A DNA stretch of 56,644 bases from Nemertoderma westbladi. Taxonomy: Eukaryota; Animalia; Xenacoelomorpha. Of this stretch, positions 5,085 to 56,644 are shown in pieces. The stretch lies in the NCBI GenBank assembly GCA_032718475.1, contig JAUCBJ010006940.1, forward strand, positions 1 through 56,644, in the 5' to 3' direction. Within the stretch, counting starts at the first letter, position 1. The number at the start of each line of letters is the position of its first letter. Below the pieces are notes generated by a model that was not told the DNA's origin, searched no databases, and saw only the letters and a list, made by a program, of their open reading frames with translations. The position numbers and the translations under genes were made by a program.

Positions 5085-5587
5085 AAATTTTGAAATCCAG
5101 GACAGACCTGGAAACTGCAAGGTACAAACAGTCAGACAGTTCAGCAGTTCCGAATTTAAAAATCGCCAACTGCCGGTACCTACCCATGATAATAACATTA
5201 ATGAATACCAATCACGGCGGTCACTGGTAAGGGTAACCGGTAACGTACCTACTGTCATATACTGCAGATATAGGCTAATATGCCTGATATGATGACACAA
5301 TATGGCTGACAGTCAGATATAATTGAAATGGATACATAAAGACGGCTTAACTAGCCCTAGAAGAAGCAGCCTAATGCAGTAGGCCTAATGTTATTTCTGT
5401 TATTTAATATTGATAATGCAATTCAAATGCAATATGGAAATGGTGAGTCAAGTGATGATAGTATTATTATTATTATTGCCTACCTGCTTAGGCCTACCAC
5501 TACCGGTACCGGTACATCTACTGAACGTTTACTGGCTGCTATTGCTATCAACTGAACTTGACCGAAATTGTTAATTGTGAAAAAATG

Positions 5588-7034: not shown

Positions 7035-7252
7035 TGATATGTACTGATACGTACAATATACATGGCTCGCCCCTTATAGGACTATGTACCTAAGATACCG
7101 GTACCACGAGATAGGTGGAGGGTTTTCCCTATTGCTATGCTGTACTGATATTACACTGTAATGCTGTACTACACTTTTATATTATACGTGTCTGCCTTAT
7201 ATACTATTGATATTTATATTATTGGGGATATTCCGATAGTGCAGACATACCA
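7035..7252 (+). repeat. 5' LTR of Gypsy element
   Basis: TGATATG...CATACCA; one substitution seen versus 3' LTR. Confidence 0.96.
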
Positions 7253-7336
7253 TGGCGCTGCGAGTAGTTAAACTCATAACACGCATTTAGCATTTAAAGT
7301 GTAGCCAAAAGCAACCGCCTGAACGCCAACCCAAAA

Positions 7337-9652: not shown

Positions 9653-9689
9653 AAGAACACATCGATCGCGTCCGCACTATATTGGAGCG

Positions 9690-11882: not shown

Positions 11883-11915
11883 ATTGAAAAACATTAAAAA
11901 TCTAAAAGGGGGAGT

Positions 11916-12133
11916 TGATATGTACTGATACGTACAATATACATGGCTCGCCCCTTATAGGACTATGTACCTAAGATACCGGTACCACGAGATAGGTGGA
12001 GGGTTTTCCCTATTGCTATGCTGTACTGATATTACACTGTACTGCTGTACTACACTTTTATATTATACGTGTCTGCCTTATATACTATTGATATTTATAT
12101 TATTGGGGATATTCCGATAGTGCAGACATACCA
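11916..12133 (+). repeat. 3' LTR of Gypsy element
   Basis: Direct repeat of 7035-7252 after PPT. Confidence 0.96.
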
Positions 12134-32100: not shown

Positions 32101-33129
32101 GATATCCATCCCCCGCCGTCTCTCGTCCACCCAATCAACCGCCGAAACGGGATCCGCCAACGTCGTAGCGGGCAGACGAGGGACAACGGGCGACAAATTT
32201 GGAATATTTCGCTCGGGGTCCAGGACCTGAACTGTCTCCTGGGCAGTTCTACGGGGCACAGGTAGCTTAGTGCTATGCAGAGGGAATTTATAGGTAGCTT
32301 CAGGGAGCTCAGGCGTATCTATTACCGAAGGGGTGATTTCAAGAACAGGCCTACTTATTTCAGGCTCATCTACTATAGTAGGGAGTCTTTCTATTGTAAT
32401 TATTTGGTCTGTGGGTTCTGTACTCTCTAAGTTGTTGTTATTTAGTTGCCTTCTAACAGCTGGAGGCAAATCAGGCAATTTCTGTCGGTGGAATGTTCTT
32501 TTACGTCTGCTTAAGCGGGATCGATTTACTCCGCCTTCAGTGTCGGTGGTATCGCCTTCCTCGGATGATGTATAACCTTGTCGTTTAGGAGTAGATCGAT
32601 TCATCATCTGCATATTACTAGCTGTTAACTGTTTATTAAATTTATCTTGCCTCTCTTGAAGATTTTCCAACTCTAGTTGGGTTGTCTCTTCAGATGCCCT
32701 CCGTTCTGCTTCTGCCACTGCTATCTTTCTTTCGGCTTCTACTGCTGCAGCTGCCGCCTTTGCCTCTGCCGCTACCGCTTTTGCCTCGGCCGCTGCCTCT
32801 GCCGCTGCCTCTGCCGCTTTCTTTCTATCTTCTATACGTTTTTTCTTTACTTGTTCTTCTTGAACCTTAACGACGCGGAGTTGTTCATCGAATTTAGCTT
32901 GATTAGCCGCTAACCTATCCACGTCGATAGCGTCAAGCACACGCTGTGCTCCTTCGCTATTAGGGCTAAGTCCCTCTAGCCTTCTCCTCAACTCTTCATC
33001 TCCCAAAAAACGCTGATAGTCTGACAGATAGATATCAATGGCATCCTTCTTATGCGGTTTCTCTGCCGTCGCTTCGCTCTCGGTTGTATCTAGTAGACTG
33101 TCTGACAGGTTCTGCTTTGCGTCAGACAT
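29101..33129 (-). CDS. BEL/Pao Gag-protease polyprotein lacking RT, most of RNase H and integrase
   Basis: KFNGDEMKWLPF / EKLRYL (DUF1759), CVLCDGPH, CYNCLRRGH, CAKCGAKHH, ALLDSGSTGTFI, TRVGW..GP, then directly QWRYCPKKFNPTDIASRG and YSSW. Confidence 0.92.
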   Translation of the reverse strand: MSDAKQNLSDSLLDTTESEATAEKPHKKDAIDIYLSDYQRFLGDEELRRRLEGLSPNSEGAQRVLDAIDVDRLAANQAKFDEQLRVVKVQEEQVKKKRIEDRKKAAEAAAEAAAEAKAVAAEAKAAAAAVEAERKIAVAEAERRASEETTQLELENLQERQDKFNKQLTASNMQMMNRSTPKRQGYTSSEEGDTTDTEGGVNRSRLSRRKRTFHRQKLPDLPPAVRRQLNNNNLESTEPTDQIITIERLPTIVDEPEISRPVLEITPSVIDTPELPEATYKFPLHSTKLPVPRRTAQETVQVLDPERNIPNLSPVVPRLPATTLADPVSAVDWVDERRRGMDILLGQMQETVQQFKGTVRESRLELQEVQQSIALERDKLVNTQKGIPPPSVTMCQPVRSEVLHAQGVEPTRIYTASEVETPIVNPIKGNYRPVDNDIPYRTDHNPRNLYTDNSILNSTMAQESFTRQMARTEARQAVKVGEIVKFNGDEMKWLPFNEYYKDNIQNSVLSNGEKLRYLIECLEGSPKLMALRFIGHPDGLRQVWDTLNIRYGNRNNIAGYLYAKLVAPRKFISSGIIEFSDEIQEICRQLDWLGKSHEYQSAMVIRAVASTLPKGGVGTRWDKKVLYMMEQQRRDPTMADLMSFLDGEVKLQLLRQSREKTLENKVSEKPVSRRRVTPVCYTDDGESQTSQGEDSGKDTDRPYYVNKMPKEQVSKSKSRPNDRREPVQKTPPTSPKGIQVRKPEERTSVHHIAQVKVSNIKPKCVLCDGPHRLNACDKFLRKSLEDRREVMWDKRLCYNCLRRGHQRRTCNSDARCAKCGAKHHILLHTEFERNSPSQVSESELHVQFSDVNDTDQSEMEGFYTDEFSDQNESCYLINTTAVYRALVYEKDTDSDLALTTSDQQPSWKAPTSNIGIREFPVVQLRVHGPQKSYIVNALLDSGSTGTFIDRELAEVIFAGQPKFRTKLNMSGIMQVWNSTVAADYYIGELSTPQDKLGEYSIRSVKMVAIKNFATTQADLYNWDEDESIQHLNIPRFQTDYPGVQILIGQNAHEALETLEKRPAQPQPLQTYAVRTRVGWYLTGPSRRTLRERLLQDRVCQVSEWEDDTSEGDDPTEGTPHSSDNDNLSSNVDQWRYCPKKFNPTDIASRGATPQELTDTIDRLGEPDFLSKENEWPPHLTPTEIRPAKGAEKVEPETRTGGSELFEPGIDLSVLHVARDDAVDLGLPSASGSFMKIRESDWSSGTSDVSQGLSPLLQRATDHYSSWNRLCDAVIYFERCFYRHYSRTKRKPGIVFRMQRLNHPVGRLCLPEGNGGLSGNCGRQDSHPTTTSLILQTSRDSIT

Positions 33130-33209
33130 GCTTATGTGTACAGTTGAATGTCTACTGCTGTATTACAGTCTGAGCAAGTCTAGTAACTCAGTATTAACTG
33201 CTAGCCTAG

Positions 33210-38615: not shown

Positions 38616-40122
38616 TGAGCATTAAAATACCTGAGTGTTTAAAGCTCATCTATCCCATCATAGTAGACATGTACCGTACAACAAGAGTCCCACAAGAAAT
38701 GAAAACAAATAAGTTGGTGCCAGTTCCCAAGAAGGGCAACCTAACACTCTATGGTTCTTTTCGGGGAATCTCATTGATCTCGATTGCTGCAAAGCTATAC
38801 AATAGGATTCTATTAAATCGCATCAGGGATCCCATTGAGAGACTGCTCCGTGAAATCAGAATGGGTTCCGTAAAGGTCGTGGGACCATGGAGCCCATTTT
38901 GGCACTTAGAAGGATAATTGAAGAATTATCAAAAAAGAAAGACAGGCATCTGGCTGTTATCTTTGTTGACTTCTTCAAGGCCTTTGATTCAGTCTCTCGC
39001 TCACGTATGTTCAGCATACTTTCATTATATGGGATTCCTGATGAAATTATTGCAGCAATCAGATCAGTATACGATGGTTCGACAACATTTGTGTCTACTG
39101 TTGACGGTGACACAGAACCATTTGAAGTGTTATGGGGCGTCCTCCAAGGAGACACACTTGCACCATTCTTGTTCATTATTGTGGTTGACTATGTTCTACG
39201 CATGTCCGTAGATCATCATAATGATGATGGGGTGATGATAACTCCACCTACTGGCTCCAGAAGTCGAGGAAATCCTGCCAAGTACCTAACTGATCTAGAC
39301 TTTGCTGATGACTTAGGAGTACTCTCAGAATCATTAGAGGGAGCCCAACGGCTCCTCAGCTCATTAGAACATGCTGCTTCTAGTGTTGGTCTTTTTATTA
39401 ACTCCAGAAAGACCAAAATTCTGACAGTTAACTTTGAAAGTCCTCAGCAAGTCTCTGATCGGATGAGCATAAGCTCAAAGGATGGTATGCTTGAGCATGT
39501 GGACGACTTCTGTTACCTGGGATCATGGATCCGGAAGTCAGGTGAGGACCTTCGAATACGTAAGGGAAAGGCATGGGCAGCCTTGAATAGGCTTTCCAGG
39601 ATTTGGAAGTCACCGAGAATTAATCGGAAACTTAAGGTCCGATTATTTAGAGCAGCAGTAGTTCCAGTACTCCTCTACGGGAGTCCATGCTGGGCTCTAA
39701 CTGCTGAGGACACCAAATCTCTGGATGGCACATTCACAAGAATGCTACGCCGGGTTCATTGTGTCAAGTACAATGCACACATCTCCAACCAGACACTATA
39801 TAACATTGGAGGTGTCTCATTGGTTCCCCCAAGCTTGACACTAGAACAAAATCGCCTCCGCTTTGCAGGACATTGCTTTCGCCGTGAGGACCAGCCAGTG
39901 CATAATCTTGTACTTTGGCAGCCTCATGGAGTGAATAAGCATGGTGGACAGCCCATGACTTTCTTGAGACGCATCTTAATGGACACTGGCCTTAAAGATG
40001 CGGATGATCTAGCAAATGTCATGGGTGATAGGGAGTTGTGGCGGTGCAATTTTGTTGACAAGCCGGCACAGCATTCTTAAAAATGCAGCTGCAATGCAGC
40101 ATGCCGATCCTAGTAGTAGTAG
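38616..40122 (+). mobile_element. RTE-clade LINE, 5' truncated, (TAG)n tail
   Basis: PKKG, FRGISL, VDFFKAFDS, GVLQGDTLAPFLF, FADD, RLRFAGHC; short 3' UTR then TAGTAGTAGTAG. Confidence 0.92.
38887..40080 (+). CDS. RTE reverse transcriptase (partial; upstream piece 38615-38860 in another frame)
   Basis: RT motifs as above; frameshift near 38855. Confidence 0.9.
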   Translation: MEPILALRRIIEELSKKKDRHLAVIFVDFFKAFDSVSRSRMFSILSLYGIPDEIIAAIRSVYDGSTTFVSTVDGDTEPFEVLWGVLQGDTLAPFLFIIVVDYVLRMSVDHHNDDGVMITPPTGSRSRGNPAKYLTDLDFADDLGVLSESLEGAQRLLSSLEHAASSVGLFINSRKTKILTVNFESPQQVSDRMSISSKDGMLEHVDDFCYLGSWIRKSGEDLRIRKGKAWAALNRLSRIWKSPRINRKLKVRLFRAAVVPVLLYGSPCWALTAEDTKSLDGTFTRMLRRVHCVKYNAHISNQTLYNIGGVSLVPPSLTLEQNRLRFAGHCFRREDQPVHNLVLWQPHGVNKHGGQPMTFLRRILMDTGLKDADDLANVMGDRELWRCNFVDKPAQHS

Positions 40123-41165
40123 TGAACGACGAGCTCTATGGTACTATACCACCTGTATCAACCACCCTCCGTGAACGCCGAGCTCTATGGTACTATACCA
40201 CCTGCTGTACCAACCACCCTCCGTGAACGCCGAGCTCTATGGTACTATACCACCTGTATCAACCACCCTCCGTGAACGCCGAGCTCTATGGTACTATACC
40301 ACCTGTATCAACCGCCCTCCGTGAACGCCGAGCTCTATCGTACTATACCTCCTGTTTCAACCACCCTCCATGAACGCCAAGCTCTATGGTACTATACCAC
40401 CTGTATCAACCACCCTCCGTGAACGCCGAGCTCTATAGTACTATACCACCTGTATCAACCACCCTCCTTGAACGCCGAGCTCTATGGTACTATACCACCT
40501 GTATCAACCACCCTCCGTGAACGCCGAGCTCTATGGTACTATACCACCTGTATCAACCACCCTCCGTGAACACCGAGCTCTATGGTACTATACCACCTGT
40601 ATCAACCACCCTTCGTGAACGCCGAGCTCTATGGTACTATACCACCTGTATCAACCACCCTCCGTGAACACCGAGCTCTATGGTACTATACCACCTGTAT
40701 CAACCACCCTCCGTGAACGCAGATCTCTATGGTACTATACCACCTGTATCAACCACCCTCCGTGAACGCCGAGCTCTATGGTACTATAACACCTGTATCA
40801 ACCACCCTCCGTGAACGCCGAGCTCTATAGTACTATACCATCTGTATCAACCACCCTCCGTGAACGCCGAGCTCTATGGTACTATACCACCTGTATCAAC
40901 CACCCTCCGTGAACGCCGAGCTCTATGGTACTATACCACCTGTATCAACCACCCTCCGTGAACACCGAGCTCTATGGTACTATACCACCTGTATCAACCA
41001 CCCTCCGTGAACGCCGAGCTCTATGGTACTATACCACCTGTATCAACCACCCTCCGTGAACGCCGAGCTCTATGGTACTATACCACCTTTATCAACCACC
41101 CTCCGTGAACGCAGATCTCTATGGTACTATACCACCTGTATCAACCACCCTCCGTGAACGCCGAG
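40122..41165. repeat. 49-bp satellite, about 21 copies (right block of the same array)
   Basis: Same unit and orientation as 20472-23131. Confidence 0.98.
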
Positions 41166-41332: not shown

Positions 41333-42628
41333 CGAAAATAGGAAGTCCCACACCCGTGTTCTGAGTTTGGTCGGTTCACATATCGTGGATTCGAGTTTGG
41401 TTGGTTCACATATCGTGGTTCACAGTTTGGTTGGTTCACATATCGTGGTTCAGAGTTTGGTTGGTTCACATATCGTGGTAGTTCAGAGTTTGGTTGGTTC
41501 ACATATCGTGGCTCCGAGTTTGGTTGGTTCACATATCGTGGGTCAGAGTTTGGTTGGTTCACATATCGTGGATTCGAGTTTGGTTGGTTCACATATCGTG
41601 GATTCGAGTTTGGTTGGTTCACATATCGTGGTTCAGAGTTTGGTTGGTTCACATATCGTGGATCAGAGTTTGGTTGGTTCACATATCGTGGTTCAGAGTT
41701 TGGTTGGTTCACATATCGTGGATCAGAGTTTGGTTGGTTCACATATCGTGGATCAGAGTTTGGTTGGTTCACATATCGTGGTTAAGAGTTTGGTTGGTTC
41801 ACATATCGTGGTTCAGAGTTTGGTTGGTTCACATATCGTGGTTCAGAGTTTGGTTGGTTCACATATCGTGGTTCAGAGTTTGGTTGGTTCACATATCGTG
41901 AATCAGAGTTTGGTTGGTTCACATATCGTGGGTCAGAGATTGGTTGGTTCACATATCGTGGTTCAGAGTTTGGTTGGTTCACATATCGTGGATTCGAGTT
42001 TGGTTGGTTCACATATCGTGGATCAGAGTTTGGTTGGTTCACATATCGTTGTTCAGAGTTTGGTTGGTTCACATATCGTGGATTCGAGTTTGGTTGGTTC
42101 ACATATCGTGGTTCAGAGTTTGGTTGGTTCTCATATCGTGGTTCAGAGTTTGGTTGGTTCACATATCGTGGTTCAGAGTTTGGTTGGTTCACATATCGTG
42201 GTTCAGAGTTTGGTTGGTTCACATATCGTGGATTCGAGTTTGGTTGGTTCACATATCGTGGTTCAGAGTTTGGTTGGTTCTCATATCGTGGTTCAGAGTT
42301 TGGTTGGTTCACATATCGTGGTTCAGAGTTTGGTTGGTTCACATATCGTGGTTCAGAGTATGGTTGGTTCTCATATCGTGGTTCAGAGTTTCATTGGTTC
42401 ACATATCGTGGTTCAGAGTTTGTTTGGTTCTCATATCGTGGCTCAGAGTTTGGTTGGTTCTCATATCGTGGTTCAGAGTTTCATTGGTTCACATATCGTG
42501 GATTCGAGTTTGGTTGGTTCACATATCGTGGTTCAGAGTTTGGTTGGTTCTCATATCGTGGTTCAGAGTTTGGTTGGTTCTCATATTGTGGTTTAGATTT
42601 TGGCTGATTCCCACATCGTTCACATATC
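41333..42628 (-). other. Candidate exon encoding (YVNQPNSEPR)n, with one in-frame TAA at 41784-41782
   Basis: Acceptor TATAG at 42629 and donor CG|GTGAGT at 41332; 1296 nt, phase 2-2; the only indel is 3 nt. Confidence 0.35.
41360..42600. repeat. 30-bp minisatellite, about 41 copies
   Basis: Unit TGGTTGGTTCACATATCGTGGTTCAGAGTT. Confidence 0.98.
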
Positions 42629-42913: not shown

Positions 42914-45900
42914 CTAACTGTCTTTATGTTTTTTTCTAGTTAGTAATTTAACTAAGTGGCTCTGGTTAGTTTTATTCAATAATTCACAGAATACAATAAA
43001 GTCATCATAAGGTCTCCTTTTAATGGCTTCTATTAGTTCGCTGTTCCTTTGTAAACCAGTCGGCTGATATTTGATCTGCTCAATAAGATTTTCAGTAAGA
43101 ATATTTCTACTTCTCAATAGCGGTAACAATTCACTCAGCTCCATGTTATAAACCAGTTCAACTTTATTCCTCATAAGAATATTTTCAAATTCTACATCAA
43201 CATTTCCTTTTATCATATCTACTAAATGTTGTTGGTTTGTTTGTGTTAAACTATCCATAAATACTTTCATAATGAACTCTGATTTCCCTTTCAGAGATTC
43301 TATAATGGCTCGGCTCTTTAGTATTTTCGTTTCTCGTGTTTCTATAAACTGAATCTGATCATTGTTTAGTATAAAACTTTTTTCGATATATAGTAATAAC
43401 TCAGTTGGTTCAAGTTTTTCTTCAAATTTTATTGTTTCAACTTTTAAATATTCCTGATCCTTCGATTTAACTAAAAACCAAGTTTTATATTCCTGAGTTT
43501 CTATACTTGCATTATTCTCACAGGTAATTATTGGTTTACTCAAACAATCTGATAGTAGAATAAAGTGGATACATGATTCATTGTGGCATTTATATAGACC
43601 ATGCCTTTCACATTTATATGAACAAGGACATGTTACTTTCAATTGAAAATCAACAATATTGTTCATTTTTCCAGCTGATATAAGTTCTCCCAAGCTGTCA
43701 ACAATGTAATCTTTTACTCTGTTTGCAAAATCAGAATCTGGAGGACTTATAATATTTTCGGTGCTATCAATATTATCTTTAGGTTTCATAAGAACTTTTC
43801 TTACAATTTGAACTTTTATTCTTGAAAAATGCCTTGGAGACACATATAGAATTATATCGTGATCAACATCACAGTATATAACTACAGACCGGTAGTAAAG
43901 AGTTGGTTCAGATTTAATATCTCCAATGAGATACGACCATTCTATAAGGCGTTTTACTAGTCGATAAAATAGACCCTCAGGTAAAAAACCATTAAAAGCA
44001 ATAAAAAATTCAATATCATTTGCTTTAATAGGGTAAATAGGCTGATTGGCATTTTTAAGTCTACAAGGTACATAATATGATTTATTCATTTTTGACTTTT
44101 TTAACAATGGTTCTGATTCGTCTCCATTACCTGGCACAGTTTCTCCTATTCTTTCACATATTAAATCAAAACGCTCTAGGATTTTTAACATAAAATTTTT
44201 TTTGAGTCCCATATTACCCCAGATATCGTCCAGTAAATCCCAGTGCAATACACCCTTGTCATCCAAATCCTCAAAATATTTCAAATTTTTCCAATTTATA
44301 TGTTCTTTGACTGTAATAATACTGGCAAACATTGAACTTAACCACTCTGGTTTCAATATAATTGTATCACGCAACGATTCTTCATCAAAATAGATAATTC
44401 TACCTCTATCATGGTAAAATTCTAACATTGTCTTTAAACCGGGGTATTCAAATTCTACTTTTATTTCCTTTAACTTACATTCTAAATCTATAATATCAAT
44501 ATAAACGTCATTATTTTTAAGTAATTGAGTTACAAGTTTTTCAAATTTTAAATAATCCAAAGGAATTTCTTCCTTAAATTTGTCCATTTCTTTAACAATT
44601 TCTAACTGTAAGTTTTGAAGTTCTTCATCTGAATCTGATCTTGCCTCTTTGCTATTTTCCACAGCAAATGCTTCTTTAACTAAAATATTGCAATGCAATG
44701 TGGACTTTAATAGTTGGAAAATTTCCTTAAACTTTTTACGAGCTAAAATGTTCTGAGTTTCTGGATCTTCATGCAAACTGGCTTTCTTTGTTCCAACTAA
44801 GAATACTGGAGGACCAGAAATGTTTGCGGCACTTTCTGAATTATTTTCACCAAATGTAAATATATTGCGCAACCAAAAATCAATAAATTCTATATTAGTC
44901 ATCTCGCTATATATCTTATTTATATTCTCTTCATCGGCTCTGAATATAATGTTGGCTGTTTTATCAGCATCTTGGGTAAGATCAAAAACAACTATATAAA
45001 TAGCCCGTCTACTTAGAAACATCTGATGGGTTGTATAATAAATACATTGGCCACCAAAATCGACTATCTGTAGTGAAAAGCGACTGTCTTCCTCATTAAA
45101 TTTAGCCAGAATATCTTGAGGTTTACCAGATAACAATATATCCTCTATACCTTTTGAGACTTCTGCAGGGATATCATATTTATTGTCCTCAAATATTGAT
45201 TCATGTGGCGTTACGACTTTTCCGCTATCAGATATATTTCCTCTTTCGCTATCTACTGAAATATCTTCTCTAATTTCCTTGCTGCGTTCTATTTTAACAG
45301 GCTTATCATAAGAACTGGTTCTATTATTCATGTCTCTATCGCTATTTTCACCAGATATTACTGATAAAGTTGACTGGATGCCATCAGTGTATATTTTTTC
45401 ACTGTCCACATTAGAAGCATCTTCTTGAACTTTGAATTCTAGAACACTTTTTGCAACTTTCTTTGCAACAGCATTGTCTGGATCAGCCTCTAAAATATCA
45501 ACATTCTTTAAATTAGTCCAGTCTGTGTGTTTATCAGTATCTATAACACAATTAGCCACTGAATCAATACCATCTGTTATTGGTTCATTAATATCAAACG
45601 GTTGACCAATAAGGGCCTTCTTCAAACTAGTTTTACCAGCCCTCTCTTGTCCCACTAACATTAACCGGGTTTTCAATATCCATGTAGTCCCTTTAGAAAG
45701 AGCTGCTTTATAAGCAGCCAATGCTTCTGGCCCTCTCGCCAGTATCTCTACAGGCAGTTTTTGTTTTTTTATATAATTAATTAAAAATTTTGGAAGTCTC
45801 ATTCTATTTGTTCCACTTATATTCATAATCATAAGTCCCATGTCTCTGAATTTATTAACAATTTCTATTGTTGAAACTTCATTTAAACCCCAAATACTAA

Positions 45901-46176
45901 CCAGTTTCTGGGTTGTTAACTCAGAAATATCTGCATCCAGTCTAAAGTAAAGTTCTTTCTCTTTATCTGAAAGAACATCAACAGTAGATATAATTATATT
46001 AGTTATCTTACCCTGGAGTGGTTTATTTATGGGACCAACCCATCCAATATACTCAACAATTTCCTTTAATTCTTCAGCTTTCTCCAATATACTTTCCACC
46101 TGTTTGATACTTTTCTTTCTTTCAGTTTGATCTTTACTGAACGTATCAATTACTGTAATTGTGCCGCCATCATCTC
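42914..46176 (-). CDS. Roco-family protein, large 3' exon: end of WD40, winged-helix, Roc GTPase, COR, two CARD-like death folds
   Basis: P-loop GQERAGKTS, TDGI, DFGGQ..YYTTHQMFLS..AIYIVVFD, PPVFLVGT, COR L.FYHDRG.IIYF...IL.PEWL, YYVPC; two C-terminal L..L....IL.......I...TNQ.HLV repeats; acceptor TTTATACAG|GA. Confidence 0.9.
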
Positions 46177-46498
46177 CTGTATAAAGTATAATTATTGTTA
46201 AGCTGTCTTTCCACAGAGTTGACATCCAATATTACGATGAAAGAAACTGGGTGGGAGCAAGTTAAATTTTATTAATCAAATTACAAATATAATTATAAAT
46301 ATAATTCGTTAGGGTCTCCAATATGCACCTACGGTCCCTATACGTTTCCCTGCCTATGTCTTCTGTTTTTTGGTTACAACATTTATTCTGTTTTTGGTGC
46401 AATTTTCAACAGATATAAAGTCGTACATTACGTTAGTCAATTCTGCAATTTATATTAGAATCCTATGCAATGTCTTGCAATGCATTGCAATGTCCTGC

Positions 46499-46820
46499 AA
46501 TATAAACAACTACCCGCGATACTATATACTATTAATATAAACAACTACCCGCGATACTGTATACTGTTAATATAAACAACTACCCGCGATACTGTATACT
46601 GTTAATATAAACAACTACCTGCGATACTGTTAATATAAACAACTACCCGCGATACTGTATACTGTTAATATAAACAACTACCCGCGATACTGTATACTGT
46701 TAATATAAACAACTACCCGCGATACTGTATACTGTTAATATAAACAACTACCCGCGATACTGTATACTGTTAATATAAACAACTACCCGCGATACTGTAT
46801 ACTGTTAATATAAACAACTA
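46499..46820. repeat. 35-bp minisatellite, about 9 copies, intronic
   Basis: Unit AATATAAACAACTACCCGCGATACTGTATACTGTT. Confidence 0.95.
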
Positions 46821-47988
46821 TACTACTACTACTACTACTAGGATCGGCATGCTGCATTGCAGCTGCATTTTTAAGAATGCTGTGCCGGATTGTCAACAAA
46901 ATTGCACCGCCACAACTCCCTATCACCCATGACATTTGCTAGATCATCCACATCTTTAAGGGCAGTGTCCTTTAAGATGCGTCTCAAGAAAGTCATGGGC
47001 TGTCCACCATGCTTATTCACTCCATGAGGCTGCCAAAGTACAAGATTATGCACTGGCTGGTCCTCACGGCGAAAGCAATGTCCTGCAAAGCGGAGGCGAT
47101 TTTGTTCTAGTGTCAAGCTTGGGGGAACCAATGAGACACCTCCAATGGTATATAGTGTCTGGTTGGAGATCTGTGCATTGTACTTGACACAATGAACCCG
47201 GCGTAGCATTCTTGTGAATGTGCCATCCAGAGATTTGGTGTCCTCAGCAGTTAGAGCCCAGCATGGACTCCCGTAGAGGAGTACTGGAACTACTGCTGCT
47301 CTAAATAATCGGACCTTAAGTTTCCGATTAATTCTCGGTGACTTCCAAATCCTGGAAAGCCTATTCAAGGCTGTCCATGCCTTTCCCTTACGTATTCGAA
47401 GGTCCTCACCTGACTTCCGGATCCATGATCCCAGGTAACAGAAGTCGTCCACATGCTCAAGCATACCATCCTTTGAGCTTATGCTCATCCGATCAGAGAC
47501 TTGCTGAGGACTTTCAAAGTTAACTGTCAGAATTTTGGTCTTTCTGGAGTTAATAAAAAGACCAACACTAGAAGCAGCATGTTCTAATGAGCTGAGGAGC
47601 CGTTGGGCTCCCTCTAATGATTCTGAGAGTACTCCCAAGTCATCAGCAAAGTCTAGATCAGTTAGGTACTTGGCAGGATTTCCTCGACTTCTGGAGCCAG
47701 TAGGTGGAGTTATCATCACCCCATCATCATTATGATGATCTAAGGACATGCGTAGAACATAGTCAACCACAATAATGAACAAGAATGGTGCAAGTGTGTC
47801 TCCTTGGAGGACGCCCCATAACACTTCAAATGGTTCTGTGTCACCGTCAACAGTAGACACAAATGTTGTCGAACCATCGTATACTGATCTGATTGCTGCA
47901 ATAATTTCATCAGGAATCCCATATAATGAAAGTATGCTGAACATACGTGAGCGAGAGACTGAATCAAAGGCCTTGAAGAAGTCAACAA
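46821..47988 (-). mobile_element. Second RTE copy, 5' truncated, in the Roco intron (ORF 46871-48004)
   Basis: Near-identical to 38960-40122 in reverse; (TAG)n tail at 46821-46840. Confidence 0.95.
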
Positions 47989-49072
47989 TCGGACGAACTA
48001 CCAATTAAATTTTTTTTTACAAAGTTTAAGTTGACTCGATATGAAACTGTTTCGAAAATTTCTACAAATTTGCTCCGATTTAAAGAGGGTTGGGAAAGAA
48101 GGTTAAACTCATGCATGCAATATGTAAAATAGACGGTAATGCCTGAACTGACCATAATTACATTGGGAAACTTTTAAACGGAAACATGTAAAGCGCCACA
48201 ACGAACATTATTTATGGAGAGTGTTATAGTTTTTACTGACAGTGTTGGTGGTGGGCTTAAAATTTGAATGTAAATAATGGTAATTGGTAAATAAAATGTA
48301 TCGATTTACAGTTATATGCGGTCTTATATAATGGCTATAAACGTTGTGGAATAACACAACACTGTATCGACAATGGCCACATATTCGACGAATATAACGT
48401 GTCAGTTCTAGACTCCCATATATAGATCCAACCGATTTGGCAACTCACGAAACTATTCAAATACGAACAAATTTATATACATATATTTTTATAATAATTT
48501 ATTTTACCAGGAATAAAACGACATTAAAAATTATACTTTCTTTGATGAGTGACACTTATATACTTATATGAACTTACATTAATATTTTTCCACACTCACT
48601 GTTCTGTACACTCGTAATTTTTGAAAAAGACTCTTATTCTGCTATAAACAGTACAATAATTCCACACTTATTGTAACATGAGAAAACCTACCAAATCCAA
48701 TGATACATTTATCTGTTTGTGGGAAAGTATGTTTGTTTGTTTGTGGTGGTGGGAAATTTCAAAAAGGTCAGGGTATCATATTCTGTATCACTACCGGTCT
48801 AAATACTCAGTGTCAAGTTGTTCAAACAGTATTCCAAACCGTATGAGTAAAAAATCAGCTCCCTACTGCACGAGAATTTAACTCGCAGAAATAAGCTGTT
48901 TCCTTATTAAAAATTGTATTAGTTCAACTCAGAGCAGAGGACCCCATGTAACCGGAATTTTCAATTTTACATTTAAATTTTTACAAAAGTTTTATAAAAG
49001 TGACTTTTACGAAATTGTTGCCTCCGTTTCGTTGCCATTTTTCCCATCAATAGTGATTTATTTTTTATATAT

Positions 49073-49444
49073 TTGAAAGCTTGCATTGTGAGGATTCCAA
49101 AAATGTATTAATGTCTAAATTTCGTTGATAAACAGATGAGATATGGGCGTTCTAAGATTGCAAGAAGTATCTTTCATTATAATATACCAGTATGTATGTG
49201 TAGCTATGCATACATAAATCTAATAATATATTATAAATAGGATAAATAAATGGGATTTTTATCATAAAAATGATAAAAATAATATCACGTTTTAGAATGT
49301 TGTGTTTATATTAATTATAATAAATGACCACCAGCGAATGATAATTTATCACAATCTTTGAACGCCAGTATTATATCTCAGCTGTTTCTCAACGAAACTC
49401 AAAATATATTTATATTTGGAATCCTTACAACTCAAGCTTTCTAA
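49073..49444. repeat. About 90-bp imperfect inverted repeat pair, probably from a non-autonomous DNA transposon
   Basis: TTGAAAGCTTGCATTGTGAGGATTCCAAA...GCGTTCTAAGATTG versus CAATCTTTGAACGCC...TTTGGAATCCTTACAACTCAAGCTTTCTAA. Confidence 0.65.
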
Positions 49445-50265
49445 TAATATGTCGTTGTGGCCAATATGAGGAATGGCCGTGATGCAATGAGGGCGATATC
49501 GCAAACGTTAAACGTCTATAAATTCAAAAAAGAAAATTCTACGTAGCCCCATGTTAAATAAAGTATGATAAAGATTGTATGAAAATAAGGTGGGGTGTGG
49601 GTTAGGGATGTCCCTTCTTATCTAAAATGACAGGTGTAATATATTATTATAATAAGCCTTTGTTGTAAGTAATGGGAGTGTGTGGCAGCCTTGAAAATGA
49701 AAGTTTTTATTATACATTACCGGTTGTATTCTCTTACAGTTACTTTACTGCATTGCAGTACCGGTACGCCTATTGGTACCATTATAGTTTGGTTATTTAA
49801 GTAGAACTACCAGTTGGTTAAAACGCCATTGTTACAAACCAATAACAAACAACCTAACAGATAACTGAATACATAATATTATTAAGCTAATTGCTGGTTT
49901 ATTTGTTTATTTTTATGTTACATTTACCTGAACCAAACCGCACCTAAAACTATCCGACTACAGGGACTATGTTGTAATGGTCTATATTCTGATACCCCTA
50001 TTAGACTAATTTTAATTTCGTTCCCATGGTACCCAATATTGGCAGGAGGCAGTGAAGGTAATGTTCAGTTAATCCGCATCATATCGGTAAGTAAATTATT
50101 AATTAAATAAAATTAAATTAAAGAATAATAATTAATGTAATTAATTAATTTAAGTGTTATAATGATTATTACTTACTATGGTACATGGTACGGTACTGAA
50201 TTAGACACTAGGCCTAATTAATTAATTTAACGTGTTTTAATAAAAGAGGTCTATTAATTAATTAC

Positions 50266-51118
50266 CTGTAATAATATGCCGGTCTTCTTTACAGAAATCG
50301 ACAGAATAGATTCCGCTCCCCGTTCCTTCAATCCGGTTGATAACCTTCCCAGTTACAGAATTTAGAATATAAATCAACCCGGTGTTCCACCCAACAGCAG
50401 CGATTCTGGATCCGTTCGGACTCAATACGATCCTCCGGACCTCAGGAGTTGCTTCCTGTCTCCACAAGGTCTCCCCTGTACCAACACCGAAGCGATGGAT
50501 CCCTCCTCCCTCATCTACCGACACCACTGACTCCCCATCCGGACCCCAACCCAGACTGTTGACCCCCCAACTGTGCCCCCGGTATTGATACAACATCTCC
50601 CGGGTTCCGGTCACCCAAACTTTTACTGTTCCATCCCGCGAACAGCTGACCAACCGGGACCCGTTCGAGTCGAACCGAATACAGTAAACCCACCCAGAAT
50701 GCCCCACCCAGTTCGTAACCTTATATTTCCCCCCAGTTATTGATATAATAGAAATCCCCCCATCCAACCCACAAGTTGCAATGACGTCCCGGTTGGAGGG
50801 ATTTATATCTATTCCCAACCTATATACATACTCCCCCCCACCAACCACTAACTCCTCCCCCGGTACCTCCACTACGACCCTCCAACCGGTCGCTTCCCGC
50901 TCCCAGACAGTCACCGACCCCCCCACCCAGGTTCCCGAGGCAACGCGGTTCCCGTCCGTAGAAACCGCGACTGTCCTGTAACGGGTAGAACCTCCGGATC
51001 GCGGTAGATATTCCTTTTCGTAGAGAGTTGTTGAGTTTATGATACAGGGGAGGTTGTCAGACACAAAGACAACCTCCTCGGTACCCGGGATCATTTTGAG
51101 TTCCAGGATCGCCGCCAT
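50266..51118 (-). CDS. WD40-repeat exon of the Roco gene
   Basis: GHSGWVYCIRFD...LVSCSRDGTVKVW, GHSWGVNSLGW; donor ACAG|GTAAT; splices in phase 1 to 46176 giving HIITG-DDGGTITVID. Confidence 0.85.
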
Positions 51119-51280
51119 TGTTAGGGGGATTATTGAATCTAAAAGATAAAATAAAGTAAATTGCCGCTAAATTGCTAAAGTACTAATAAGTATTACAGCG
51201 CTAGTAATTGTTATTAGATAGTCAGCGTAGCCAGTAATTATTTACTAGCTGTTTTTATTTATTCGGTTTGTATAAACGAT

Positions 51281-53109
51281 TGTAAAAGCCTTTGCTGAAT
51301 TGCCCCGTTATTTTTATTATCTTTTACATTAAAATACTCTGTAGTTGATTTAATAAGTGTAAGAGACCGTATTATTGCTGTATCGGTGTTTTTAGAGGAT
51401 CTAAGACCTATTTCCTCCGTATGTGTACTGTGAAAGGCATATTTTGTGATTCTATGGCAATTCGTGACGCAAAGGGGTGATAGCTACTCTTGAACAGTAG
51501 TTACTATGACTACGGTTAACAGCTGACATTCATACGTGTTGATTTCCTTTGTTCTACGGCGTCTCTCAGTTCAGTCAGCCAATGAGAGCGTTTTTGTGGC
51601 TCCTTGTACAGAAAATTTCCGAGAAATGACGCAATGCCTATGTGCAGTGTTTACATTCAGTCTTGAGCCAAAGAAAGAACGGCTTGGAAGTATTTTGTGC
51701 TGTACTGCTTTTTAGTCGTACACTAGTAGGTTTAATTATAAAGGGCATATATCCTTTAACTGATGACTGCTGACTGATCATACATGCTGACTGCTGAAAC
51801 ATTGCAAACTCATAACAATCAGTGTTTTCATTGTTGTTTTATACTGCTATTTACCGTCAGTTCTTCATAATATGGTTGATGAATAATTATATTTGGAATA
51901 ACGATAAACAACCCCTAAACCCAATATTCTTGATATACCGAAGGTAAGAGAGAAGGGTTACAAATAAACGATTGTGACTTATGTTAAAGTGGTTTGAAGT
52001 GAATCTAATGTTATTTGATAGACCCTACATGATTCAGTCTGTGTTCCTTTTATATGTGACTAAAATCAGTGAAGATTGGCAGATTAGTGTGCAGTATTGT
52101 GCAGCATTGTGTATGAGTGAGTCTGTTAAAGAAGCAATTCCTAAAGAATGCGCCATATATGTGAATTATAATTAAGCCATATCGTTGTGAGTAGTTTAAG
52201 TCATAACTCTGTTTATATAGATAAAGCGCCACGTCCTAAAGGAACTGTTAATATTACCGAAGGTGAATAATATTGTCAGAGATTATATAATACTGTCAGT
52301 CGAATAATACATTAGGCTTACATAGCAATAAAAATTAAACCGTCGAACCCAATCTCCCGGGAATATCCAGCGGGTGAATGGTCGCGCACGGATTGGTTTC
52401 GACTAGTGTAGTGAATCAAATACTTGTCATAGACTAAAAGCAGATTTAATATCTAGAAGACATCTTGATTTGGTGGGTTAAACTGCCAAAGGTCTGAAAG
52501 CGCGAACATTAAAGGATATAGCTTCTTTATTGCAGTAAGCAATAAAGTCGAAAGTATCGGTCGACCGGTAACCAGTAGGCCTGACTGCCTGATCATCCGG
52601 ACCGGTACCTACTTCCGTATAAGTACAGCAGTATTATTCGATTTGATTATATATGCCGGTAGGTCTTAATAATTAATCGGGGACGCCTGGTTTTTATTGG
52701 GATTTTACTTAGGCCTATTTCTGTCAGTTTTATTTGTTTGTAGGCCAGTATTGAACAGAAGGCGTGTAAACCTGATCAGATTGTACAGACAATTTGTAGG
52801 CTGAGCTGTTGTCTGATTGCTGTTAAGTCCGAACGAATTGCAGTGTGTGTAGAGCACTTGTCCGATTAAGTACGGTTAGGAAGTAGGGGCAGCAACGCTG
52901 TAAGGTAAACCCCCAACTAAAGAATAAGTCGCACTACTGGGTTAGAGCGCATACTCCCTAATCATTTCGGAGTCTGCATGTCCTGTAGTTTATTTAGGCT
53001 TGAGAGTAGTCTGCCATCGTTTAGTCTGTACTTTGTTTGTGTAAGTCTGTACGGGTAGCGTATAATTTTATTTAAATAATTTGTAGGCTGGATAGTTGTC
53101 TGGCTGTTA
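51281..53109 (+). mobile_element. Truncated relative of BEL element 2: 5' LTR (51281-52508) plus about 600 bp of leader
   Basis: Starts TGTAAAAGC, ends CGCGAACA; downstream sequence matches the reverse complement of about 34815-35477. Confidence 0.93.
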
Positions 53110-54792
53110 ATAATTATATGAAATATAATTAAATAAGGGAGACAACTCATAGTCTCTATAATTACACTTAGAATGTTGTGGCCTATAGACTACAATAATA
53201 GTACCACTTCCTGCTTGTAGAACATTGTGATTGTGCTGGTGGTTTCCAAGATTTCTAATCTTAGCAAGAAGGTAATTTCTCTCTTTTGAGTGCAGTGGTT
53301 CCTTGGAAATATCAACAACTAGATGTTCATCTTGATGAGCAATCTCCATATGCTGAAACAGCTTTGAATATCCTTTTTCGCAAAAGTAACAAAAAAATTT
53401 TCTGTCCCACTTCCGTATTTTTCCATAATTGTTTGTGGCGAAGATGTGAATATTTGATTTGTCCTGATTTTTGACTCCATTTGATAATGTTGCAAATGGA
53501 TCATATTGACATTGATCACTTGATTCCTCGCAATATTTAATTTCTTCATTACATTCAGATGCAGTGTAGTTTGAATCATTATCTGATGATTCATTCTCTG
53601 ATGATGCATCCTGCATATCCGAATCTGTTCCAGTTGTAGTTTGGAGTCCCACTTGCCCTATTTCCTCACTTTCATTTATACCAATATCATTAATGGTAGG
53701 TAAAGCAGATTCAAATAAACTAGCTCCAGCAATAATGTCTCCTGATATAGATCCATTAACAATTCTTTCCTTTGTACCTTCAGCAATAATGTCTCCTGAT
53801 ATAGATCCATTAACAACTCTTTCCTTTGTACCTTCAGCAATAATGTCTCCTGATATAGATCCATTAACAACTCGTTCCTTTGTACCTTCAGCAATAATGT
53901 CTCCTGATATAGATCCATTAACAACTCGTTCCTTTGTACCTTCAGCAATAATGTCTCCTGATATAGATCCATTAACAACTCGTTCCTTTGTACCTTCAGC
54001 AATAATGTCTCCTGATATAGATCCATTAACAACTCGTTCCTTTGTACCTTCAGCAATAATGTCTCCTGATATAGATGCATTAACAACTCGTTCCTTTGTA
54101 CCTTCAGCAAAAATGTCTCCTGATATAGATCCATTAACAACTCGTTCCTTTGTACCTTCAGCAATAATGTCTCCTGATATAGATCCATTAACAACTCGTT
54201 CCTTTGTACCTTCAGCAATAATGTCTCCTGATATAGATCCATTAACAACTCGTTCCTTTGTACCTTCAGCAATAATGTCTCCTGATATAGATGCATTAAC
54301 AACTCGTTCCTTTGTACCTTCAGCAATAATGTCTCCTGATATAGATCCATTAACAATTCGTTCCTTTGTACCTTCTAATTCGTTAAGACTATCAATTTTA
54401 AAACTAGAAGTTGTAGTTTGGAGTCCCACTTGCCCTATTTCCTCATTTTCAATTATACCAATATCATTAATGGTAGGTGAAACAGATTCAAATACACTAG
54501 CATCAACAATACCTCCTGATATAAACTCATTAAATGGTTCACATAAAACTCGTTCATTAGTACTTTCTAATTCGACAAGACTATCCATTTTAAAACTATC
54601 CTCCGAATCGTTAGGAGTATTAATTGCAGTCATAGTAACATCGAAGGCACTGTGCACTTCTCCCATCACCCATTCAGGACTAATTAGCTCTATGATTCCA
54701 TCATCATACTGAACTCGAACTTTATATCCTTCTCTACGTTTTCCTTTTCCTGGATAGAAACAAGAGGTAATATTATCACTATGAAAATTCAT
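53107..54792 (-). pseudogene. Truncated ORF with 18-aa repeats and a Cys/His domain resembling tyrosine-recombinase (CryptonV-like) transposon proteins
   Basis: WDRKFFCYFC...KLFQHMEIAH.DE..V......SKER.......RNLGNHQHN..VL..G.G.IIVVYRP; cut off at the junction with the LTR-element leader; no catalytic domain visible. Confidence 0.55.
53727..54375. repeat. 54-bp coding minisatellite, about 12 copies
   Basis: Encodes GTKERVVNGSISGDIIAE on the minus strand. Confidence 0.95.
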
Positions 54793-55587
54793 CCCACTTC
54801 CGGGGAAAATCGGCGCAAATAACAGATGATTACTCTCAAAACGTTAATAACGTATCACTAAAACCTGATCCTTTCGCAAAATGCATAAGTTAACATTGAG
54901 AAAAGATGTTAATTCATTTGCATCCAATCCAATATCACCCCCCCCCCCCCTTCATCACATACCTAGGATGCAAGGCAGCCATACATCGTAAAAAGAGGAT
55001 ATACAAATTCGTCAAAGAATAAAATATTGTCTAATATTTCTGAAACCACACAAAGCCTATCAAACATTTATCTTTTAGGGGTTTACTGGGTCGGAGATTT
55101 CATTACCGATATCATTTATTGTGTTTGGCGGAATCTAGGCTGTCTGTCTTTTTGTCCATCAGCAATTTTGATATAGTACGAAAAGTGCAAGCATTTCAAA
55201 AAAGAGTCAAGACGTGGGTAAAATTTTTTTAAAGTGTTACTATCGGATTCACCGACCTCAAAAACCCTGTAGTGAAATATTAGTGGAAAAAATCCAATAT
55301 CGAAAGTGATATAGCGAAAACGCGTAAAGATTTAAAATCTCCATAAAAGTTCGGTCTTAATTAAACAATAAAAGATTATGATTTTTACAAAACAACAACA
55401 AATACACCAAACAATGTACCGGTATAAAGGTATTGTCCAACATAACATATAGGATTACCCTTAAAGGTTTGCAGCTTATTTCCAAGAGGGTCCTTTATGT
55501 TACTTGGTTACAAATACAATATTATTACACAAATACGATACGCATAAAACAAATATAATATGTAATTACATATTGTGGAAGTTACAT

Positions 55588-55804
55588 AGAATTAATCGGA
55601 AACTTAAGGTCCGATTATTTAGAGCAGCAGTAGTGCCCGTACTCCTATGGGAGTCCATGCTAGGCTCTAACTGCTGAGGACACCAAATCTCTGGATGGCA
55701 CATTCACAAGAATGCTACGCCGGGTTCATGGTGTCAGGTAAAATGCACACATCTCCAACCGCAGACACTATATAACAGTGGAGATGTCGCATTGGTTCCC
55801 CCAA
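55588..55804 (+). mobile_element. Third, decayed RTE fragment
   Basis: Matches about 39616-39832 with indels. Confidence 0.9.
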
Positions 55805-55807
55805 TCT

Positions 55808-56644
55808 ATATTATTATTATTATCATTATTATCGTACCGTACATATTGATTAAAACACAATAGTACAGACAGATTAATATATGTATGTATGTATGTATGA
55901 AAAAAAAAGAAGGAAAAAAATGAAGCAAAAATTAAGAGCACAAAAGTGGCCTAGATATATAAATGTATGTACAGAATAAGCATTAAACGTACCTAGTGAA
56001 CAAGTCAACAGACAATATAATATTAGAACGTTGCAACGTAATTGCGCATATATACTAATTCATCGTAGCTGAAACCGGGAACCGTTAATTCATTAATGAT
56101 TGCTAATGATAACTCGTTACAAATTAACGGACGCCATTCCTGTTCATCCGGAATTTCAACGTACGATAAACGGCCTGCTAACATTGGTGTTATACAATTT
56201 AGGTCTGAAATATTACATTCGTTACCTATTCGTCTCAAATTCCTACCTGAAATTGACCGACAATCAAACATGGTTAAATTAGCTAATAATCTTACACATA
56301 ACCGTTGGCTATTCAGCACTGTGTCTTTAAATTTAATAAACCGTTTACGAAGCATACTGTAAGGGTGTGGAAAATTAACTAAATGTTGCACAATAAACCT
56401 ATGGCTATTATAAGGCAAAGCCCAAACCCATCTGACATTGTTATTCCACGCTGTAAGAACTCTTCTACAATTATCTGACGATAAATCCCATATTGGGCTA
56501 CCGTAAAAACTTGTGCAGTATAATTTCTGTATTTTAGTAATGCAACTGGGTACTGCGAATCGAAATTCATTTCTTAGATTATCCAATTTCCCAATAAATG
56601 CGCCGCGTTTGCGGTCTATGTCGGTGTCGGTTGTACCTTTGAAA
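55808..56644 (-). mobile_element. 3' end of another LINE (Proto2/RTE-X-like ORF2 C-terminus, stop at 56023) with (TAA)n-type tail
   Basis: YCTSFYGSPIWDL...WNNNVRWVWALP..SH parallels the C-terminus of the ORF at 23308; ATT-repeat tail at about 55808-55832. Confidence 0.8.

What the first reader, a model, noticed from the sequence alone, without database searches (positions are those of the whole stretch)
42914..51118. WD40 - Apaf-1-like winged helix - Roc-COR - CARD-CARD protein: apoptosome-like parts around a Roco GTPase
Seen: a phase-1 splice (50266 to 46176, 4089-bp intron) completes a WD repeat and gives a 1371-aa frame. After the WD40s, IIISTVDVLSDKEKELYFRL...KLVSIWGLNEVSTIEIVNKFRDMGL...MRLPKFLINYI resembles the Apaf-1 winged-helix domain. 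Then come Roc-COR and two CARD-like folds. Established: Apaf-1 is CARD-NB-ARC-WHD-WD40; Roco proteins dimerise through COR; DAPK1 has Roc-COR-death domain. Inference: a sensor (WD40) / GTPase switch / caspase-recruiting (CARD) receptor in reversed order with Roc replacing NB-ARC, a possibly undescribed innate-immune or cell-death platform.
Basis: partly seen in the sequence, partly recalled or inferred. Interest (0 to 1): 0.85.

Follow-up and report, generated by a model that had tools for sequence, protein, structure and literature searches.

The report
Roco GTPase with borrowed Apaf-1-type part
An animal gene, predicted to splice from two intact exons, joins a WD40 propeller, a likely Apaf-1-type winged helix, an LRRK2-type GTP switch and two cell-death adaptor (CARD) domains; it likely works as an immune or cell-death alarm, a new combination within a known domain-swapping invertebrate family rather than a reversed apoptosome.

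Summary
The gene model holds. A GT-AG phase-1 join (50266/46176) gives 1371 aa. That acceptor ranks 1 of 745 open candidates for finishing the last WD40 blade; no RNA run was listed, so splicing is inferred. Roc, COR-A and both CARDs pass Pfam cut-offs. The winged helix is probably real and of NB-ARC (Apaf-1/Dark) type: one profile test and a guided model support it, but Pfam, HMMER and hhalign do not. It lacks the ADP-gating His-Asp.

The protein is a member of the modular invertebrate Roco family. At least 49 of 151 relatives carry a death-fold domain after COR, 3 a CARD, and a freshwater-mussel protein already has a probable propeller-Roc-COR-CARD-CARD order. None of the 151 has WD40 or this winged helix. 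A sensor-Roc-COR-effector layout is published, and this scan noted a Roc-COR-CARD gene in another genome.

An apoptosome wheel is unlikely, because the ring-forming NBD and HD1 are absent. Best reading: ligand- and nucleotide-controlled exposure or clustering of tandem CARDs recruits a caspase or CARD adaptor. Verdict: new variant of a known kind, moderate interest.

The parts
50266..51118 (-). Coding exon 1 (aa 1-284 plus 1 nt): six WD40-type blades and the first half of a seventh by my reading; ATG at 51118 with A at -3 and G at +4
   Evidence: PF00400 E 2.4e-22; own WD40 HMM 74.3 bits; blade count by eye and; GC3 0.57, CpG o/e 0.92
51119..51166 (-). Polypyrimidine tract and AG acceptor 20 nt before the ATG: likely a 5' UTR intron, or a phase-1 acceptor for an unseen upstream coding exon
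   Evidence: sequence; no convincing upstream coding exon in 51100-56644
46177..50265 (-). Predicted 4089-bp phase-1 GT-AG intron
   Evidence: no transcript seen
46828..47988 (-). 5'-truncated reverse-transcriptase (LINE) copy inside the intron, same strand as the gene; not part of the protein
   Evidence: RVT_1 E 6.3e-15; 99.2% identical over 1161 bp to 38963-40123
46499..46820 (.). 35-bp minisatellite (9.4 copies) in the intron
42914..46176 (-). Coding exon 2 (aa 286-1371 and stop)
   Evidence: GC3 0.24, CpG o/e 0.51
46139..46176 (-). End of the last WD40 blade, supplied by exon 2
   Evidence: rank 1 of 745 candidate acceptors
46013..46138 (-). Long helix / linker (aa about 298-339); no family match
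   Evidence: low confidence
45755..46012 (-). Likely NB-ARC-type (Apaf-1/Dark-like) winged-helix domain, aa 340-425, with Pro-Lys in place of the MHD His-Asp
   Evidence: for; against or null:
44585..45754 (-). Alpha-0 linker and Roc GTPase domain (aa about 426-815) with a long insertion between G2 and G3; G1, G2, G3, G5 match the family, G4 lacks the Asp
   Evidence: PF08477; PDB Roco hits E 1.9e-18; motif counts
44156..44554 (-). COR-A (aa 826-958)
   Evidence: PF16095 46 bits vs cut-off 35.3
43460..44155 (-). COR-B by homology to relatives (no direct Pfam match), ending in a conserved Cys/His cluster at 43520-43630 (aa 1134-1170), a predicted zinc module
43211..43435 (-). CARD 1 (aa 1199-1273)
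   Evidence: PF00619 26.2 bits vs 23.9; weak PDB hits CED-4, RAIDD, CED-3
42935..43183 (-). CARD 2 (aa 1283-1365)
   Evidence: PF00619 46.1 bits; weak PDB hits to Apaf-1 and CED-4 CARDs, E about 0.02

Best explanation
This is a two-exon animal gene, predicted to splice into one 1371-aa modular Roco protein that likely acts as a cytosolic alarm: the WD40 propeller would bind a ligand, the Roc-COR unit would change its nucleotide and dimer state, and the tandem CARDs would then be exposed or clustered to recruit a CARD caspase or adaptor. Shown: intact frames, WD40, Roc, COR-A and two CARDs, and kinship to invertebrate Rocos that swap their end domains. Inferred: splicing (about 0.9); the winged helix being a fragment taken from an NB-ARC / Apaf-1-like gene (about 0.8); and its role as a rigid coupler between propeller and Roc rather than a nucleotide gate, since it lacks the His-Asp motif and its NBD/HD1 partners. 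Untested: ligand, GTP turnover, direction of the switch, CARD partner and outcome (cell death or immune signalling).
For: Splice and frames. Domains. G1 Gly/Lys/Thr, G2 Thr, G3 Asp-x-x-Gly and G5 Asn match the family consensus, and the Cys/His cluster is kept, which argues for an intact protein. Family: 5171 hits at E<=0.001, best 150 returned at 25-43% identity; the 30 looked up are, where named, invertebrate animals. At least 49 of 151 have a Death, DED or CARD domain after COR (hand count). Others end in TIR, caspase, HEPN, GT4, trypsin, OTU or kinase domains, and begin with Neuralized, ankyrin, Macro, NACHT, FN3, NHL, TPR, SH2 and others. Winged helix: best site in the whole protein for an NB-ARC-WHD profile (z 5.5 and 5.8; 0 of 500 and 1 of 400 shuffles reach it; 0 of 169 relatives score as high). 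It does not fit COR-A's own helical subdomain (z 1.0-1.8). The guided model has pLDDT 87.8. Its best matches are Apaf-1 (Z 11.9, rmsd 2.0, 86 aligned, tied within 1 Z with a wheat NLR and CED-4), and the highest identity among 50 rows is to fly Dark (22-23%). Literature: PMC8195603 section 15 (sensor-AP-GTPase-COR-variable effector), PMC4104024 passages, PMC4691890 passages.
Against: No transcript or protein evidence. The junction motif scores below typical WD40 repeats. The exons differ sharply in GC3 (0.57 vs 0.24). G4 reads Thr-Lys-Lys-Ala where 96 of 148 aligned relatives have Asp at the last position, so GTP binding may be weak or less specific; G4-G5 vary in Rocos (PMC6337361, passages). 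The winged helix scored only 1.2 bits with HMMER (9 of 1000 shuffles as high), nothing with hhalign and nothing with Pfam (the APAF-1-like_WHD family PF21296 exists). The single-sequence model failed (pLDDT 34.7). The successful model was steered by an NB-ARC alignment, with no control job. No close homologue with the same order exists to show conservation.
Confidence: 0.55

Rival explanations
1. Nucleotide-insensitive scaffold or decoy: the protein is made, but the Roc domain no longer switches, and the tandem CARDs sequester a caspase or adaptor or hold a complex constitutively.
For: G4 Asp is replaced by Ala; the MHD His-Asp is lost; the Roc-COR branch is long (1.44 vs terminal median 0.45).
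Against: G1, G2, G3 and G5 are intact, and 52 of 148 relatives also lack the G4 Asp; G4-G5 variation is normal in Rocos (PMC6337361, passages).
Confidence: 0.18
2. The gene model is incomplete or wrong: exon 2 is expressed without the WD40 exon (an in-frame ATG lies 17 codons before the acceptor), or further coding exons lie upstream through the acceptor at about 51138.
For: In-frame upstream ATG in the exon-2 frame; acceptor 20 nt before the exon-1 ATG, in phase 1 and open; GC3 contrast.
Against: Exon 2 begins with exactly the residues that finish the last blade (rank 1 of 745). The exon-1 donor cannot be read through. The upstream ATG of exon 2 has T at -3, while the exon-1 ATG has a good context. 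CpG is undepleted upstream, in exon 1 and in the 5' intron (0.92-0.96) and depleted in exon 2 (0.51), as expected for one gene with a methylated body (inference).
Confidence: 0.12
3. One reading: an apoptosome-like wheel in which the winged helix gates or couples to the Roc nucleotide site as it does to the NBD in Apaf-1, and activation builds a CARD disc.
For: The winged helix is most like that of Apaf-1/Dark, directly precedes the Roc linker, and sits with WD40 and CARDs. An unchecked note reports a caspase-Apaf-1 fusion in the same genome.
Against: NBD and HD1, which make the ring contacts, are absent, and the His that binds ADP is missing (PMC4691890 passages). The characterised bacterial Roco cycles between dimer and monomer (PMC5714945, abstract). 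None of 169 relatives has such a winged helix, so Roc-COR does not need it.
Confidence: 0.1
4. A young, silent or decaying shuffle product with no function.
For: Repeat-rich neighbourhood, a recent LINE copy in the intron, no listed RNA, no orthologue found.
Against: 1371 codons without a stop; nucleotide-binding and Cys/His residues are kept despite only 25-43% identity to relatives.
Confidence: 0.05

Closest known systems
Modular invertebrate Roco proteins (Trichoplax ROCO set, PMC4104024; Aplysia TIR/Death-ROCO proteins, PMC9334734; Neuralized-Roc-COR-Death-TIR proteins P0003-P0011; Owenia ROC-caspase, PMC11463336)
   Same: Same Roc-COR core (up to 349 bits, about 30-36% identity), same long G2-G3 insertion and Cys/His tail, death-fold domain after COR, variable N-terminus.
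   Different: No WD40 and no NB-ARC-type winged helix in 151 relatives; this protein is a long branch beside a 46-member clade (FastTree, midpoint root, no outgroup).
Sinanodonta woodiana KAL3889163.1 (P0084) and unionid mussel kin P0058, P0093, P0145
   Same: Probable beta-propeller, Roc, COR, two CARDs in the same order; its kin swap Death, HEPN or TIR at the end.
   Different: The propeller is NHL/SGL-like (inferred through kin, not folded), not WD40; no winged helix; it lies in the other main branch of the tree (distance 4.4), so the match is likely convergent.
Apaf-1 / Dark / CED-4
   Same: WD40 (Apaf-1, Dark), a winged helix of the same subtype (Z 9.8-11.9, 8-23% identity) and CARD.
   Different: No NBD, HD1 or HD2; no MHD His-Asp; one propeller, N-terminal; CARDs C-terminal and doubled; Roc-COR as the nucleotide module.
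DAPK1 (Roco group 3, PMC6337361)
   Same: No LRR; repeat domain before Roc-COR; death-fold domain after COR.
   Different: No kinase; WD40 and winged helix in place of kinase and ankyrins (ankyrins recalled); two CARDs instead of a death domain.
Prokaryotic AP-GTPase counter-invader proteins (PMC8195603)
   Same: Sensor repeats, Roc (AP-GTPase)-COR, variable C-terminal effector.
   Different: Those have LRR sensors and are bacterial.

Membership tests
Roco proteins | Roc domain followed by COR | tested here: met
   Roc 48.7 and COR-A 46 bits, above cut-offs; PDB Roco hits
Roco proteins | C-terminal COR subdomain (COR-B, dimer interface) | tested here: inconclusive
   No direct Pfam match; the region aligns with relatives in which COR-B matches weakly
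Roco proteins | G1, G2, G3, G5 motifs | tested here: met
Roco proteins | G4 guanine-specificity Asp | tested here: not met
   Ala at 750; Asp in 96 of 148 relatives; G4-G5 vary in the family (PMC6337361), so this does not exclude membership
Roco proteins | GTP binding, hydrolysis and nucleotide-dependent dimer cycle | not testable with these tools
   needs biochemistry
Apaf-1 / NB-ARC (STAND) apoptosome formers | NB-ARC ATPase (NBD and HD1) | tested here: not met
   No NB-ARC match at E<=1; the only P-loop belongs to Roc
Apaf-1 / NB-ARC (STAND) apoptosome formers | Winged-helix domain of NB-ARC type | tested here: inconclusive
   Supported; not by 28, 29, 37, 61, 67, 68; I put it at about 0.8
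Apaf-1 / NB-ARC (STAND) apoptosome formers | MHD/LHD motif in the winged helix | tested here: not met
   Pro-Lys at the His-Asp columns
Apaf-1 / NB-ARC (STAND) apoptosome formers | N-terminal CARD, C-terminal WD40 | tested here: not met
   order reversed
DAPK1 group | N-terminal kinase domain | tested here: not met
   no kinase match; an unseen upstream exon is not excluded
LRRK1/2 group | LRR before Roc, kinase after COR | tested here: not met
CARD adaptors | CARD fold by family score | tested here: met
   both pass PF00619 cut-off; not folded
CARD adaptors | Homotypic binding to a caspase or adaptor CARD | not tested
   no partner sequence from this animal in hand

The most novel reading that the evidence does not exclude
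The regulatory winged helix of an Apaf-1-like ATPase has been grafted onto an unrelated GTPase and works there: the WD40 propeller moves the winged helix, which controls Roc nucleotide exchange or dimer state and so builds a CARD platform that activates caspases. That would be a natural hybrid of the STAND and Roco switch systems, a GTP-run alternative to the apoptosome.
Probability: 0.12. Interest if true: 0.78.

Novelty: new variant of a known kind. Interest (0 to 1): 0.42.

Why it matters
Invertebrate Rocos form a large, barely studied set of proteins that swap sensor and effector domains around an LRRK2-type switch. This one gives a compact, kinase-free test of how the Roc-COR nucleotide cycle controls an output that is easy to assay (CARD clustering), a question still debated for LRRK2. 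The winged helix without its NB-ARC is the unusual part. If it proves functional, it shows that a piece of the Apaf-1 machine can be reused with a different nucleotide switch; if not, it records how such fusions arise from broken NB-ARC genes.

Tried and rejected
No whole genome is held, so no paralog survey. No RNA holder listed. Metagenome scan with exon 2: 60 pattern matches, none a relative. Word-index protein searches: exon 2 gave 2 hits; exon 1 gave 118 generic WD40 proteins at 20-35% identity, bacterial, fungal or protist where named, with domain lists cut short and no close relative; the CARD pair gave none among 779 candidates. Winged helix by Pfam, PDB phmmer, phmmer on stored proteins, BLAST to one NB-ARC protein, HMMER and hhalign: no significant match. 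The glocal profile was a second method, tried after HMMER was weak. Single-sequence fold failed and its Foldseek search was meaningless. PF21296 rang in none of 4 actinobacterial and 14 control genomes, so no Apaf-1-family alignment could be built; bacterial NB-ARC winged helices stood in, and their profile does find Apaf-1 366-447 (E 1.8e-5). Idea that the winged helix is a duplicate of COR-A's helical subdomain: rejected (z 1.0-1.8 vs 5.8). Upstream coding exon: none convincing; 51840-53112 is repeat. Similar-sequence look-up in earlier findings: nothing. No complex prediction was sent. Ten literature searches listed no paper describing WD40-winged helix-Roc-COR-CARD. The library lacks most subscription papers; figures (including the Trichoplax architectures in PMC4104024 Fig. 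1) and supplements were not seen.


Full report
Setting. The window is animal-type DNA full of retroelements and tandem repeats. No genome is held and no RNA run was listed, so everything rests on DNA and comparison.

Gene model. Two open frames lie on the minus strand, 50258-51166 and 42914-46231. Joining 50266 to 46176 gives a 4089-bp GT-AG phase-1 intron and 1371 residues. To test the join, I built a score for the last 11 residues of a WD40 blade from 390 repeats in 118 fetched proteins and applied it to every AG downstream of the donor to position 30000. Of 1305 sites, 745 stay open for 11 codons, and 46176 ranks first (3.9 bits, next -5.2, mean -28.3). It also opens the 1087-codon frame, while reading through the donor stops after two codons. 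The score is below typical repeats (5th percentile 13.3), but it is the second best in this protein. By my reading the join completes a seventh blade. Against the model: GC3 is 0.57 in exon 1 and 0.24 in exon 2. CpG is undepleted upstream, in exon 1 and in the 5' intron (0.92-0.96) and depleted in exon 2 (0.51). That fits a promoter-near first exon and a methylated gene body, but a separate origin of exon 1 fits too. An acceptor 20 nt before the ATG points to an upstream exon, probably non-coding; I found no coding candidate. The intron holds a LINE fragment 99.2% identical to another copy in the window and a 35-bp minisatellite.

Domains. WD40, Roc, COR-A and CARD match Pfam, and both CARDs pass the cut-off alone. 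The best solved relatives are prokaryotic Rocos and LRRK2. Against 149 aligned relatives, G1, G2, G3 and G5 match the consensus. G4 has Lys for the usual His (126 of 147) and Ala for the usual Asp (96 of 148). The G1-G3 distance is 196 residues (median 178 in 87 measurable sequences). A Cys/His cluster after COR is well conserved (C1134 74 of 74, C1136 66 of 72, H1155 64 of 65, C1170 65 of 67, plus a second set of four in about 40 sequences), which suggests one or two zinc sites (inference).

The winged helix (aa 340-425). Standard searches do not see it: Pfam, PDB, HMMER with a profile of 60 bacterial NB-ARC winged helices (1.2 bits; 9 of 1000 shuffles as high) and hhalign. A single-sequence model failed. 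In its favour, every named family shown by the ESM atlas is a STAND-type winged helix or related helix-turn-helix (scores 0.77-0.85; top hit an unnamed cyanobacterial cluster at 0.92), though shuffled proteins often give such agreement. A full-length (glocal) profile from 33 non-redundant NB-ARC winged helices picks this segment as the best site in the protein (-8.7, next -20.2; z 5.5-5.8; 0 of 500 and 1 of 400 shuffles), above all 169 relatives scored (best -12.9). Five control segments of the same protein score z below 0.9, and a COR-A profile gives z 1.0-1.8. With those sequences as alignment, AlphaFold gives pLDDT 87.8. Apaf-1 is the top match in both structure searches (Foldseek E 0.002, TM 0.75; Z 11.9, rmsd 2.0 over 86 residues, tied within 1 Z with a wheat NLR and CED-4), and Dark has the highest identity among 50 rows (22-23%). 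The alignment steers the fold and I had no control job, so this is supportive only. The His-Asp of the MHD motif is replaced by Pro-Lys. I put NB-ARC origin at about 0.8; an Apaf-1-like donor is the likeliest but is not shown.

Relatives. A full HMMER search found 5171 proteins at E<=0.001 and returned the best 150; with one more, all 151 were scanned with Pfam (thresholds 1e-3 to 1e-6; seven lists cut to five rows; many are fragments). The 30 looked up are, where named, from nemerteans, lancelets, echinoderms, molluscs, a centipede, an annelid, a brachiopod and cnidarians. At least 49 of 151 have a Death, DED or CARD domain after COR (hand count), three of them CARDs (P0050, P0084, P0112). 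None has WD40 (best 5.6 bits vs 74.3 for this protein). P0084 from the mussel Sinanodonta woodiana has two CARDs after COR. Its N-terminus matches those of P0058, P0093 and P0145 (E 1e-27 or better), which weakly match NHL/SGL propeller families, so it has the same outline with a different probable propeller and no winged helix. In a FastTree tree of 122 sequences (28 short ones dropped, midpoint root, no outgroup) this protein is a long branch beside a 46-member clade that includes the Neuralized-Roc-COR-Death-TIR proteins; P0084 falls in the other half.

Mechanism. In Apaf-1, three-quarters of the ring interface is NBD-NBD, the rest WHD-HD1, and His438 binds ADP in the resting state (PMC4691890, passages). 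With no NBD, HD1 or His-Asp, a wheel is unlikely. A bacterial Roco is a dimer when empty or GDP-bound and a monomer with GTP (PMC5714945, abstract), and COR's C-terminal half forms the dimer interface (PMC6337361, passages). The simplest reading is a sensor-switch-effector protein: ligand on the propeller shifts the Roc-COR state, which frees or clusters two to four CARDs for a caspase or adaptor, with the winged helix as a coupler or leftover. Confidence 0.55; rivals are a decoy or scaffold (0.18), a wrong or incomplete model (0.12), a true apoptosome-like platform (0.10) and a silent gene (0.05).

What is known. Trichoplax has at least 17 ROCO genes with CARD, death, TPR, LRR and AAA domains (PMC4104024, passages and figure legend). 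Aplysia has TIR/Death proteins with ROCO domains (PMC9334734, passages). Owenia has a ROC-caspase (PMC11463336, passages). LRR-AP-GTPase-COR proteins with at least 24 effector types are described as counter-invader systems (PMC8195603, section 15 and passages). [quoted passage not shown] PMC6321704 and PMC2575513 (passages) did not mention Rocos. Ten searches listed no paper with this exact architecture; figures and supplements were not seen and may hold one. Earlier notes of this scan describe a Roc-COR-CARD gene and a TIR-Roc-COR-caspase in other genomes, and a caspase-Apaf-1 fusion in this one (unchecked).

Verdict. Real, intact and probably spliced; a Roco family member, not an Apaf-1 family member. 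The WD40 plus orphan winged helix is the new element. New variant of a known kind, interest 0.42; the hybrid-switch reading has probability 0.12 and would deserve 0.78.

Noticed in passing
window 43520-43630 (-); about 40-74 relatives: A conserved Cys/His cluster after COR-B in the invertebrate Roco family, with four near-invariant residues and a second set of four in a subgroup: a probable one- or two-zinc module with no Pfam match.
   Followed up: partly
P0046 (Owenia fusiformis CAH1786849.1): The ROC-caspase also carries a Bcl-2 domain before Roc (E 5e-23): Bcl-2-Roc-COR-caspase in one chain. The passages I saw of PMC11463336 mention only the ROC pro-domain, and I did not check that it is the same protein.
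   Followed up: no
P0058, P0084, P0093, P0145 (unionid mussels): A family with a shared NHL-like N-terminus, Roc-COR and swapped effectors (HEPN, two CARDs, Death, TIR).
   Followed up: partly
P0030, P0067, P0129: NACHT NTPase and Roc-COR in one chain (coral, sea anemone, clam): other STAND-Roco fusions exist.
   Followed up: no
P0085, P0095, P0096, P0111, P0113, P0135: Roc-COR proteins ending in GT4 'conflict' glycosyltransferase domains.
   Followed up: no
window 46828-47988 (-) and 38963-40123 (+); fragment at 55572-55807: Two LINE copies 99.2% identical in opposite orientation, about 6.7 kb apart, one inside the intron: recent insertions.
   Followed up: partly
window 53107-54843 (-): 578-codon frame with twelve 54-bp repeats followed by a Cys/His-containing region; probably part of a mobile element (recalled resemblance, not tested).
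   Followed up: no
window 41358-42619 and 40122-41165: Long tandem arrays (30 bp x 42; 49 bp x 21) start about 300 bp after the stop codon; only ATTAAA-type poly(A) signals lie between (42871, 42756, 42747).
   Followed up: partly
window 50266-51118 (-): Exon 1 is strongly G-biased at fourfold sites (G 61 of 155) compared with exon 2 (G 32 of 330); unexplained.
   Followed up: partly
window 5525-16604 and 29101-33162: Nested LTR-type elements (BEL/Pao-like and Gypsy-like frames, named by eye from the translations).
   Followed up: no
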